From Lytechinus pictus (taxonomy: Eukaryota), in assembly GCF_037042905.1 (NCBI RefSeq), contig NC_087246.1, positions 22,940,001-23,004,000 of the forward strand: DNA of 64,000 nucleotides, in the 5' to 3' direction. Made by a program: the position numbers. Below are positions 1 to 3,000 of the stretch, in pieces (the stretch's first letter is position 1; every line of letters starts with the position of its first letter).

Positions 1-3000
1 TTGGGAGTATAATGTTGATTACGATAATTAGAGGTGCAAATTTGCAATGAATTTTTTATCTACTCAAGAAGCATTACGGAAATTGTAGATGATGCATGGA
101 CTTAAAAATATTTTATTCAATTTTATTCAATGATCTTTGCTTTGAAAGACTAAACTACATCACGAATGAATTTTACTGTATTTTTATGTCATTTGTACAT
201 TACATTATTTTCTATATTTACGCAACTTTATAGTATGAATACCAAATCTTTGCCACTGCCACCAATCGTTTCACGTGTCTACCGTGATTTGAGTTGTAAA
301 TTTGTTATGCAGAGTACGCCACAGGATGTGGCCCATGGGCATGCCGGGAAGGAGCAATATCTTGAAAATAAGGTATTATGTAAACTATATATTCAAAGGT
401 AACAATGAAGGATAAATAAACTTGCCATACACTGTAAAAAAAACAATGGGTAAAAATTCTAAGCGGTACGAGGGAAATATGTGTCCAACTAATTTGGGGC
501 AGTATTTTATTGTCCATCGCAGTAAAAGATAAACAGCAATTACTTTAGAATGGGCAAAATTTTCATCACACTGGATAAATAAAAATGCCCAAAAGAAGTG
601 TAGAAGTGTAGAGTGTAGAGATTCAGGGCACAAACCAGCGATTAATTCAATTTTAGTATCGGAATCATAGTAGATCATGATGGGTAATCGACTGATCTAT
701 TTACCTTTTGAAAAAGATGAAACAAAATGGGAAAGTCTTGTAGAAATGAATTAAAGAAATATACTTACAAAGATGGGAATATAGTGTAAAGGATTAAACA
801 CACCAGGTAAGTCAGCCGACAAGTTATTGAAATACACTATTACACTTATATGAGCTAATAAGAAGCATGATTTAAAAAAAAAAAACAAGGCACATAAAAT
901 TGAGCTTTTACTAACCGTGTGAATGTTGATATTTGTTGTGCTTGTAGAGTTGTTACTTCCAGGAAATGTCCTCGACCGTCTTTGACGTGTCTTTACAGCC
1001 ATCATTCCGTCGTTGACTATGTCTTCTTTTGTGGCCGGTGTCACCTTCTCCAAATCTTCCTGATCATCATCGTCATCGTCACTGTACTCGCTACCATCAA
1101 ATGCCTGATCTCCTCCGCAACAACCAGAAACAACCATATCGAACTGAGCCTCCTTGTCGTCATCAGTATGGATATCAATGCCATTGATGTGATATTGATC
1201 CATGATCACTGACTTGAATGACGTCGTCTCCGAAGCAGAGGTCGAAATACCGCTGTCGAATCCGTTGATGACTACAGAAGGGAGAGCAGGAGAGAGATTC
1301 AAGTTCAGATTGGTGGTCGGTTGTGCGAACCTTCGCTTTGTCCGACTTCGAGCTGAACTTTTCATTTGGAATGACATGGCAACTTCGAAGTGTCTCTTCA
1401 CTTCTGGCATGTGCTTCTGAAAGAGACAGATATTGAAGTTGAGGTCATTGCAGGATGGATCGACGTGCTTGAAGGTGAATGAAATGTTATTACACTTTCC
1501 TTGCCAGATGTCAGGGAAAAGTCCAGTTTCCTCAAATTTTCGACCCACAGGACTCCATCCATCATTAAGGTGTTTCAATTCGAAAACAAGATCTCCTCCT
1601 TCTTCGTCAATTAAAAATTCCAACGGACATCGAAGCATTGGACAATTATACTTGGCTTGTTGCTGGGTTGCAAACTGCAGAGCACATGGCGTGTTGTTGA
1701 GCATGTACATCAAGACTTGGAATTGGCCTCCCTCCTTCTTTCCGAACGCGGCGAGTTGAATCCACTTCTTTGTCAACTTAGGATGTGATCCTTGAGCGAT
1801 ACATGTGTACAAAGAGAAATGAGATAGGTACACCTGACATTGGTTTTCAAGGAGCGCATATTCAACCTTCCCACATTTCTTCCGATGCTGGATGGGTTTC
1901 CAATGCTTGTCCTGTGTCAAGTGCGTCTCGCTGGACAACACCACGATGTCTCTGGTATCATCTGCACAATGCATGAAGCTTAGAATTGCAGGCTTTGCCA
2001 GCTTCAGTCCATGTGGACCACAATGAACAACAGGGCTTATGATAGTTTGTGTCTCTTTCATCGGTGGGAAGTCGCTTAGATCCCAGTCAAGGACCAGTTG
2101 TATGATCTCCTTCTTACCCCGAGGGATGGCGCAGGGAGGAATTATGAGTGAAATGCCCATCTTGTCCAGAACAAGAGTTCCACCTGAATCATCAATCTCT
2201 CTGGACATAAACACCAACAGCTTGCTATCGACCTCAACAGTGACACTTTCCTTCATATCTGTTTTCAAAAGCTCGATCAACTCACTGTCGATACGACCAC
2301 TACCACAACTATAGGGCGTTAATATTTCCTGCTCATGAGTCACATTTTCTTCATTCTCGCGATGGCCGTTCGAGTCGCCACCACAAGGTCCACAACTTAG
2401 CTCCCATCCATTCTGGGGTTCATCATCCTCTGGAACGTACGCAGGATTCACCTTGGTGTTCTCCCGTTCTTTCCTGATCTGGTAATCGGTCATGGACATG
2501 ATCGCGTTGGATATAATGCAGTTTGACGGGAGATGGTGAAACATCGATGTCGGTTGATCGATGTCGCGTTCCGAACGACGTCGTCGACCCTTTTTCCATT
2601 TGAGGACAGCGATGTAGACTACCAACAACACAACTATTATTACCAACAAAACGATGACGACGCTTAAAACTGCTACTACCTGATGAACATCAGTGCCTAT
2701 TGATTTCTTTTTCATTTTGCTTGCTTTTAATCGGCTATGCAATGAAAATCAAAGGAAGGTATAGATTTCTTTGGTCAATCCACAAGTCAAATGTTTCACC
2801 TAAATTCACCATCGAACTGGGGGTGGTGTACGCATATGAAATCTGGCCAGTTTTCCTTTCATTTTTTCCATGTCTGCCACAAAGTTCTCACCGAAATACT
2901 CATACAATCTCAATCATAAGCGGAAGTGCTCTTCTTTGTGATCTCTGTACATGAAAAGTCCGATTTCCACCAAGTCTCTGCAGACTTGCTTTGCAATATA

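What the first reader, a model, noticed from the sequence alone, without database searches (positions are those of the whole stretch)
1818..2016. Gene-conversion-like tract homogenising the ZU5 core up to the HFS cleavage site between the inverted paralogs
1818-2016 (reverse complement) and 10053-10251 differ at only 8 of 199 nt by my manual count, synonymous sites included. The immediately upstream coding segment (2017-2100 vs 9969-10052) is full of synonymous and non-synonymous changes, and the linkers barely align. Near-identical silent sites with a sharp boundary point to ectopic conversion between inverted copies rather than protein-level selection alone.
Basis: partly seen in the sequence, partly recalled or inferred. 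Interest (0 to 1): 0.65.

Follow-up and report, generated by a model that had tools for sequence, protein, structure and literature searches.

The report
Gene-conversion tract between inverted ZU5 paralogs
Two neighbouring, oppositely oriented copies of an animal UNC5CL-like death-domain gene share a 200-base stretch that is almost identical even at silent sites while the rest of the gene is old and diverged, which is best explained by one copy having overwritten part of the other, a well-known process.

Summary
1818-2016 (reverse complement) and 10053-10251 differ at 8 of 199 nt. The 84 nt upstream differ at 26 of 84 and the 84 nt downstream at 13 of 84.

The two stretches lie inside a 966-nt gapless inverted repeat. 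It is formed by two head-to-head, intact paralogs encoding TM-ZU5-UPA(-Death) proteins of the UNC5CL type.

- **Silent sites:** codons with the same amino acid differ at 5 of 61 in the tract and 77 of 172 outside it (p 5e-8).
- **Blind scan:** a scan of the silent-site series picks 10053-10250 itself, and 0 of 1000 permutations reach its score.
- **Divergence:** dS is about 0.13 in the tract. It is saturated 5' of it and about 1.0 3' of it.
- **Rivals:** no RNA family, unusual fold, second reading frame, codon bias or third copy explains the tract.

Ectopic gene conversion is the best reading (about 0.72). It is not proven, because no eukaryotic genomes or reads could be consulted. The end of the tract at the HFS motif is real but probably a coincidence. 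This is an ordinary case of a known process.

The parts
1817..2016 (-).
   Evidence: 8 of 199 nt differ from 10053-10251. blastn gives 95.98% identity and finds no third copy in the window.
10053..10252 (+). Homogenised tract, copy B
   Evidence: A blind scan of silent sites picks 10053-10250, and 0 of 1000 permutations reach its score. pS 0.121, dS 0.133.
1368..2333 (-). Gapless homologous arm of copy A (ZU5-UPA coding core)
   Evidence: Inverted repeat I1: 966 nt, 79% complementary, 7402 nt between the arms.
9736..10701 (+). Gapless homologous arm of copy B (ZU5-UPA coding core)
   Evidence: Inverted repeat I1. Matches UNC5B ZU5-UPA (3g5b) at E 8e-17 over residues 44-301 of the core.
916..2715 (-). 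Copy A large coding exon: inferred ATG at 2715, a hydrophobic N-terminal stretch followed by KKGRRRR, ZU5 (Pfam match 1939-2199), UPA, linker; GT donor at 915-914
   Evidence: Open frame 751-2748. Pfam ZU5 E 5.3e-24; UPA E 3.1e-4, below the curated cut-off. Donor read from the sequence. The start codon and donor are inferred.
9351..11066 (+). Copy B large coding exon: inferred ATG at 9351, hydrophobic N-terminal stretch, ZU5 (Pfam match 9873-10130), UPA-like region, linker; GTAAGT donor at 11067
   Evidence: Open frame 9267-11117. Pfam ZU5 E 2.4e-22. Donor read from the sequence. The start codon and donor are inferred.
11582..11992 (+). Copy B second exon: Death domain and TAG stop. Phase-0 acceptor AG at 11580-11581.
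   Evidence: Pfam Death E 2.8e-7. Closest solved structure is the UNC5H2 death domain 1wmg, E 1.6e-6. Acceptor read from the sequence. The exon was searched on its own and not joined to exon 1.
10248..10256 (+). His-Phe-Ser codons of copy B (putative autoproteolytic HF/S motif). The tract ends inside the Phe codon.
   Evidence: Sequence. Phe aligns with the Leu of UNC5B 'DQLGTY'. Cleavage was not tested.
1813..1821 (-). His-Phe-Ser codons of copy A
   Evidence: Sequence.

Best explanation
A non-reciprocal ectopic (interlocus) gene conversion copied about 200 bp of the ZU5-coding region from one paralog into the other, or repeated conversions did so and later stopped. The two genes are old, intact, head-to-head UNC5CL-like genes whose homologous arms lie 7.4 kb apart. 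The inferred mechanism is a break in one copy repaired by strand invasion into the inverted copy on the same chromatid or the sister chromatid. Repair was resolved without crossover, because a crossover would have inverted the spacer. The tract has since accumulated 8 substitutions. The rest of the exon keeps much older divergence, and a possibly older homogenisation covers the 3' (UPA) part. Shown here: the block of low silent-site divergence, its sharp edges, the intact frames and the domain content. Inferred: the conversion event itself, its direction (unknown) and its timing.
For: 8 of 199 nt differ in the tract against 26 of 84 and 13 of 84 in the adjoining segments. Identical-amino-acid codons differ at 5 of 61 in the tract and 77 of 172 outside it, p 5.4e-8. 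Four-fold sites differ at 3 of 22 vs 38 of 71, p 0.0011. A blind scan recovers 10053-10250, and 0 of 1000 permutations reach its score. pS is 0.121 (bootstrap interval 0.03-0.23) in the tract, 0.805 in the 5' flank and 0.548 in the 3' flank. The 5' flank is at saturation: 41 of 67 codons differ against 0.66 expected for independently drawn codons. dN falls together with dS: 0.019/0.133 in the tract vs 0.132/0.984 in the 3' flank. Tract differences are 7 transitions to 1 transversion, against 102:85 outside (p 0.08). Two are CpG-to-CpA changes. This is the spectrum of young, unsaturated divergence. The substrate fits: a 966-nt gapless homology in inverted orientation with 7402 nt between the arms. 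Conversion between adjacent inverted paralogs, and its decline with distance over 1-8 kb, are documented in Caenorhabditis (PMC3966223, passages read). The eight remaining differences argue against an assembly collapse, which would give identity. No nucleotide-level element was found: sense fold z -0.93 and -1.72, antisense z -1.65 and -0.31, no Rfam match in the tract at E up to 1, stops in all five other frames, and GC3 not distinctive.
Against: There are only two sequences, so there is no outgroup and no phylogenetic incongruence test. GENECONV proper cannot be applied to a single pair. Nucleotide-level purifying selection on an unknown element would give the same two-sequence pattern. The flanks are now 25-30% diverged and the longest perfect run in the tract is 36 nt (positions). 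That is poor substrate for present-day conversion, so the event must be placed in the past or be self-limiting. The transition bias is not significant on its own (p 0.08). The assembly could not be checked against reads.
Confidence: 0.72

Rival explanations
1. Nucleotide-level purifying selection. The 200 nt carry a second function that has frozen silent sites in both copies since the duplication. Candidates are an RNA structure, an editing-site duplex, an exonic splicing or transcription element, or an antisense RNA.
For: With two sequences this gives the same pattern of low dS and low dN. The tract encodes the most conserved part of the domain across the superfamily (alignments to UNC5B and ZO-1), so extra constraint on this region is conceivable. 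Copy A sense fold z -1.72 and copy B antisense z -1.65 are mildly negative.
Against: No fold z-score is beyond -2, and the values are inconsistent between copies and strands. There is no Rfam match in the tract at E up to 1. No alternative frame is open. Edges that change from about 30% to 4% divergence within a few bases are unusual for selective constraint. Other stretches with fully conserved protein show plentiful silent change, for example 12 of 41 identical-amino-acid codons in 10252-10409.
Confidence: 0.12
2. Assembly or polishing artefact. Reads of one paralog were mis-assigned to the other, creating a chimeric, falsely homogenised stretch.
For: The window holds five N runs, so it is a scaffolded or masked draft. 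Paralogous regions are prone to such errors. Reads could not be examined.
Against: The tract is not identical. It has 8 differences spaced at most 36 nt apart with a transition/CpG spectrum. A collapse or consensus error would give identity. The region 1-12000 has no N. Both frames stay intact.
Confidence: 0.06
3. Conversion from a third, unseen paralog elsewhere in the genome into one or both copies, rather than exchange between these two copies.
For: UNC5CL-like and death-domain families are often multi-copy in invertebrates (recalled; not checked here). Nothing in a two-sequence comparison identifies the donor.
Against: There is no third copy in the 64 kb (tblastn, blastn). Proximity favours the neighbour as donor (PMC3966223).
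Confidence: 0.07
4. Chance, or a local mutational cold spot.
For: Silent divergence is uneven outside the tract too: 41 of 67 in the 5' flank vs 35 of 104 in the 3' flank.
Against: 0 of 1000 permutations reach the observed score. A roughly ten-fold lower mutation rate confined to the same 200 bp in both copies has no known basis.
Confidence: 0.03

Closest known systems
Interlocus gene conversion between adjacent inverted paralogs, e.g. C. elegans hsp16 modules and hsp70-7/hsp70-8 (review PMC3966223, passages read)
   Same: Neighbouring head-to-head duplicates within a few kb. A block of near-identity, including silent sites, sits beside diverged sequence. The tract is short (tens to hundreds of bp).
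   Different: In this window only about 200 bp inside one exon is homogenised while the rest of the coding sequence is near saturation. In those classic cases most or all of the gene is kept alike. No ortholog trees are available here.
Mammalian Unc5CL (Heinz et al. 2012; seen only as cited in PMC10084454 and PMC7883297, passages read; the paper itself is not held)
   Same: No UNC5 ectodomain was found in the large exon. It has a hydrophobic N-terminal stretch followed by ZU5-UPA and a Death domain, and an HFS motif where ZU5 proteins autocleave.
   Different: Orthology was not tested. The best solved-structure match is UNC5B at modest similarity. Cleavage and signalling were not tested. In this window the gene is duplicated in inverted orientation.
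PIDD1 / CARD8 / NLRP1 ZU5-UPA autoproteolysis at HF/S or SF/S (PMC3210808, passages read)
   Same: A His-Phe-Ser motif lies at the C-terminal end of the ZU5 fold. The Phe aligns with the UNC5B Leu in 'DQLGTY'. The paper equates the scissile-site Phe of CARD8 with Leu-677 of UNC5b. These are the same residue if chain 3g5b_A starts at residue 541, which is recalled and was not checked.
   Different: No LRR, NACHT or CARD domains. The protein appears to be anchored in the membrane. Cleavage is a prediction only.

Membership tests
Ectopic (interlocus) gene-conversion tract | A segment with significantly lower divergence than its flanks, silent sites included | tested here: met
   5 of 61 vs 77 of 172 identical-amino-acid codons differ, p 5.4e-8. 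0 of 1000 permutations reach the scan score. dS 0.13 vs about 1.0 to saturated.
Ectopic (interlocus) gene-conversion tract | Abrupt boundaries on both sides | tested here: met
   11 differences at 10022-10052, none at 10053-10081, and 8 at 10253-10281 (positions listed).
Ectopic (interlocus) gene-conversion tract | Homologous substrate in physical proximity | tested here: met
   966-nt gapless inverted repeat with 7402 nt between the arms.
Ectopic (interlocus) gene-conversion tract | Phylogenetic incongruence: in the tract the paralogs group by species, in the flanks by ortholog | not testable with these tools
Ectopic (interlocus) gene-conversion tract | The assembly of both copies is supported by reads | not testable with these tools
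   No reads were available. The indirect argument is that 8 differences remain in the tract.
UNC5CL-like protein (TM-ZU5-UPA-Death) | ZU5 domain | tested here: met
   Pfam PF00791 at E 5.3e-24 (A) and 2.4e-22 (B), both above the curated cut-off.
UNC5CL-like protein (TM-ZU5-UPA-Death) | UPA domain after ZU5 | tested here: inconclusive
   Pfam UPA scores 20.9 bits in A, below the 27-bit cut-off, and gives no match in B. The alignment to UNC5B 3g5b does run through ZU5 and the region after it (query 44-301, chain 11-274, E 8e-17).
UNC5CL-like protein (TM-ZU5-UPA-Death) | C-terminal Death domain | tested here: met
   Copy B exon 11582-11992: Pfam Death E 2.8e-7 and UNC5H2 death domain E 1.6e-6. 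For copy A no such exon lies within window 1-915. It is either beyond the window edge or lost.
UNC5CL-like protein (TM-ZU5-UPA-Death) | A transmembrane anchor near the N-terminus with no Ig/TSP ectodomain | tested here: inconclusive
   A hydrophobic stretch of about 25 residues followed by KKGRRRR starts about 12 residues after the first in-frame Met in both copies. No Ig or TSP match was found in the exons. No transmembrane predictor was run, and upstream exons cannot be excluded.
Autoproteolytic ZU5 (PIDD1/Unc5CL type) | HFS (or SFS) motif at the C-terminal end of the ZU5 fold | tested here: met
   SHFS is present in both copies. The Phe aligns with the UNC5B Leu of 'DQLGTY', the position PMC3210808 relates to the scissile-site Phe.
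Autoproteolytic ZU5 (PIDD1/Unc5CL type) | Actual self-cleavage between Phe and Ser | not testable with these tools
   Needs expression of the protein and an S-to-A control.

The most novel reading that the evidence does not exclude
The coincidence of the tract's 3' end with the HF|S scissile bond is functional. Concerted evolution would be tolerated or maintained only for the ZU5 half that stays with the membrane-anchored N-terminal fragment after self-cleavage. This would keep the two paralogs' N-fragments interchangeable while the released UPA-Death fragments are free to diverge. Alternatively, the 200 nt are a nucleotide-level functional element embedded in the ZU5 exon of both genes.
Probability: 0.07. 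Interest if true: 0.55.

Novelty: new member of a known kind. Interest (0 to 1): 0.25.

Why it matters
The main value is practical. Anyone dating this duplication, or building trees of ZU5/death-domain families in this genome, would be misled by a mosaic gene whose segments have three different apparent ages. It adds one clean example of a short conversion tract persisting inside otherwise saturated inverted paralogs. That is relevant to how conversion becomes confined to islands of remaining identity. It does not open a new question.

Tried and rejected
- **RNA structure:** sense fold z -0.93 and -1.72, antisense -1.65 and -0.31, and flanking control windows -0.33, +2.19 and +0.80. Nothing is distinctive.
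- **Rfam:** a search of 1-13000 at E up to 1 gave four weak miRNA/scaRNA-like chance matches, all outside the genes.
- **Overlapping reading frame:** every other frame of the tract carries 1-3 stops in both copies.
- **Codon or GC3 bias:** tract GC3 is 0.52-0.55 against 0.43-0.55 in the flanks.
- **Third copy in the window:** none found by tblastn or by blastn with word size 7.
- **Ancient palindrome centred on the 5863-6361 foldback:** rejected. The foldback has related copies at about 46.4-46.9 kb and 50.1-50.6 kb, so it belongs to a repeat family. The rest of the spacer arms do not align.
- **GENECONV:** not applicable to a single pair, because every polymorphic site is a mismatch. A scan statistic over silent sites with permutation was used instead.
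- **Papers not held:** Heinz et al. 2012 (PMC3307986) and Liao et al. 2014 (PMC4258472).
- **Literature search on ZU5 and 'gene conversion':** 1 paper holds both terms (search listing only). Its title, abstract start and term counts (3 and 1) give no sign that it is about conversion in ZU5 genes.
- **Ortholog test:** not possible. No eukaryotic collection was open, and the single genome-contig scan (prokaryotes only) was left unused as irrelevant.

Full report
**Observation**

- The upstream 84 nt (2017-2100 vs 9969-10052) differ at 26 of 84, and the next 84 nt downstream at 13 of 84.
- In the whole gapless core (9750-10700 vs 2319-1369), 195 of 951 nt differ.
- The edges are abrupt. There are 11 differences at 10022-10052, none from 10053 to 10081, and 8 at 10253-10281 (positions listed).
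- The identical run reaches 10252, so the maximal tract is 200 nt.

**What the sequences are**

The two stretches lie in a 966-nt gapless inverted repeat (1368-2333 / 9736-10701, 79% complementary, 7402 nt between the arms). Each arm sits inside a long open frame: 751-2748 on the minus strand (copy A) and 9267-11117 on the plus strand (copy B). The genes are therefore head-to-head.

- **Domains:** both frames carry a Pfam ZU5 domain (E 5.3e-24 and 2.4e-22). Copy A has a sub-threshold UPA match. The core aligns with the ZU5-UPA part of UNC5B (3g5b, E 8e-17).
- **N-terminus:** both begin with a Met followed about 12 residues later by a hydrophobic stretch of about 25 residues and KKGRRRR. No ectodomain match was found.
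- **Splicing:** both large exons end at a conserved NINIHT followed by a GT donor, at 11067 in B and 915 in A.
- **Death domain:** in B a phase-compatible acceptor at 11581/11582 opens an exon with a Death domain (Pfam E 2.8e-7). Its closest solved relative is the UNC5H2 death domain (E 1.6e-6). Copy A has no such exon within window 1-915. It lies beyond the window edge or is lost.

This architecture is that described for Unc5CL: no UNC5 ectodomain, but a transmembrane helix plus the ZU5-UPA-Death supradomain with autoproteolysis preserved (PMC10084454, passages read; PMC7883297, passage).

Both copies have SHFS. The Phe aligns with the Leu of UNC5B 'DQLGTY'. PMC3210808 (passages) states that PIDD cleaves at HF/S immediately after each ZU5 domain and that the scissile-site Phe of CARD8 corresponds to Leu-677 of UNC5b. 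So 'HFS cleavage site' is a reasonable label but an untested one.

I do not take the contig for human. Its similarity to mammalian UNC5 structures is modest and its G+C is about 36%.

**Is the tract more than protein-level conservation?**

Yes.
- **Nei-Gojobori counts:** pS 0.121 (dS 0.133) and dN 0.019 in the tract, against pS 0.666 and dN 0.156 in the rest of the core.
- **Identical-amino-acid codons:** taking only codons that encode the same degenerate amino acid in both copies, 5 of 61 differ in the tract and 77 of 172 outside it (Fisher p 5.4e-8).
- **Four-fold sites:** 3 of 22 differ in the tract and 38 of 71 outside it (p 0.0011).
- **Blind scan:** a likelihood-ratio scan over that silent series, not told the coordinates, returns 10053-10250. 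0 of 1000 permutations reach its score.
- **dN and dS together:** they drop in step (dN/dS 0.15 in the tract, 0.13 in the 3' flank). This is what a younger coalescence predicts.
- **Substitution spectrum:** the eight differences are 7 transitions and 1 transversion, against 102:85 outside (p 0.08). Two are CpG-to-CpA changes with copy A keeping the CpG.

**Strata of divergence**

Outside the tract the silent divergence is also uneven.
- In the 5' flank, 41 of 67 identical-amino-acid codons differ. That is at the saturation level of 0.66 expected for independently drawn codons.
- In the 3' flank, 35 of 104 differ, against 0.60 expected.
- A post hoc Fisher test gives p 5e-4. The blind scan after removing the tract is only borderline (18 of 300 permutations).
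- The exon may therefore be a mosaic of at least three ages, with an older homogenisation over the UPA part. This is suggestive, not established.

**Rivals**

- **A nucleotide-level functional element** would mimic the pattern, but none was detected. Fold z-scores are -0.93 and -1.72 for the sense strands and -1.65 and -0.31 for the antisense strands. There is no Rfam match in the tract at E up to 1. All other frames carry stops. GC3 is not distinctive.
- **An assembly collapse** would give identity, not eight spaced differences. Reads could not be checked.
- **A third copy as donor** is not in this window but could exist elsewhere in the genome.
- **An ancient palindrome** was rejected. The foldback at 5863-6361 near the midpoint of the spacer belongs to a repeat family with copies at about 46.4-46.9 and 50.1-50.6 kb, and the spacer arms otherwise do not align.

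**Mechanism**

The best reading (confidence 0.72) is ectopic, non-reciprocal conversion of about 200 bp between the inverted neighbours, resolved without crossover. It occurred when tract dS was zero, roughly one tenth or less of the age of the duplication as judged by dS. Today's flanks (25-30% diverged) and the longest perfect run in the tract (36 nt) make further exchange unlikely. Conversion between adjacent inverted paralogs, and its dependence on distance and local identity, are well documented (PMC3966223, passages read).

**The HFS boundary**

The tract does end inside the Phe codon of HFS. Protein identity remains high just beyond it (43 of 52), and only silent and a few replacement sites change. 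I therefore see no evidence that the cleavage site shapes the boundary and treat the coincidence as post hoc.

**What stayed unchecked**

- Orthologs and other paralogs were not examined, because no eukaryotic collection was open.
- Read support for the assembly could not be examined.
- There is no predicted structure of the core.
- Heinz 2012 and Liao 2014 are not held in the paper library.
They are unlikely to bear on these claims.

**Verdict**

It is an ordinary instance of a known process in a known gene family.

Noticed in passing
window 24258-62935 (+): A multi-exon copper-transporting P-type ATPase (ATP7-like). Exons searched one by one: HMA at 24258-24761 (E 3.5e-10) and 38899-39360 (E 1.2e-4, below the cut-off), E1-E2 ATPase at 51055-51453 (E 2.2e-14), and the DKTGT/hydrolase exon at 56079-56432 (E 2.8e-8). 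The exons were not joined.
   Followed up: partly
window 20222-20383 (-): U1 spliceosomal snRNA gene: 144.8 bits against a gathering score of 69.5, full length.
   Followed up: no
window 32658-32729 (+): tRNA-Arg (anticodon TCG) predicted by ARAGORN.
   Followed up: no
window 5863-6361; also about 46409-46896 and 50080-50587: A foldback or MITE-like element with 161-nt inverted arms (81% complementary, 177-nt loop) in the spacer between the paralogs. Related inverted pairs lie at two other places inside introns of the ATPase gene.
   Followed up: partly
window 9750-10052 vs 10252-10700: Silent divergence between the paralogs is saturated 5' of the tract (41 of 67 identical-amino-acid codons differ) but only 35 of 104 differ 3' of it. 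This hints at an older, longer homogenisation of the UPA-coding part. The blind scan is borderline (18 of 300 permutations).
   Followed up: partly
window 1-915 (-): Copy A has a GT donor at 915-914, but no Death-domain exon follows within the window (tblastn at E up to 10). The exon is beyond the window edge or lost.
   Followed up: partly
window 48339-49026 (+): A long tandem repeat. It appears in translation as about 25 copies of an 8-residue unit (NKVYCWLH), which implies a 24-nt period. It was not analysed further.
   Followed up: no
window 7342-7454: An (AC)n microsatellite of 56.5 copies in the spacer between the paralogs.
   Followed up: no
window 27314-29209 and 60284-60666: Five N runs (27314-27631, 27665-27803, 28501-28648, 28735-29209, 60284-60666) flanked by low-complexity sequence. 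They were left as they are.
   Followed up: no
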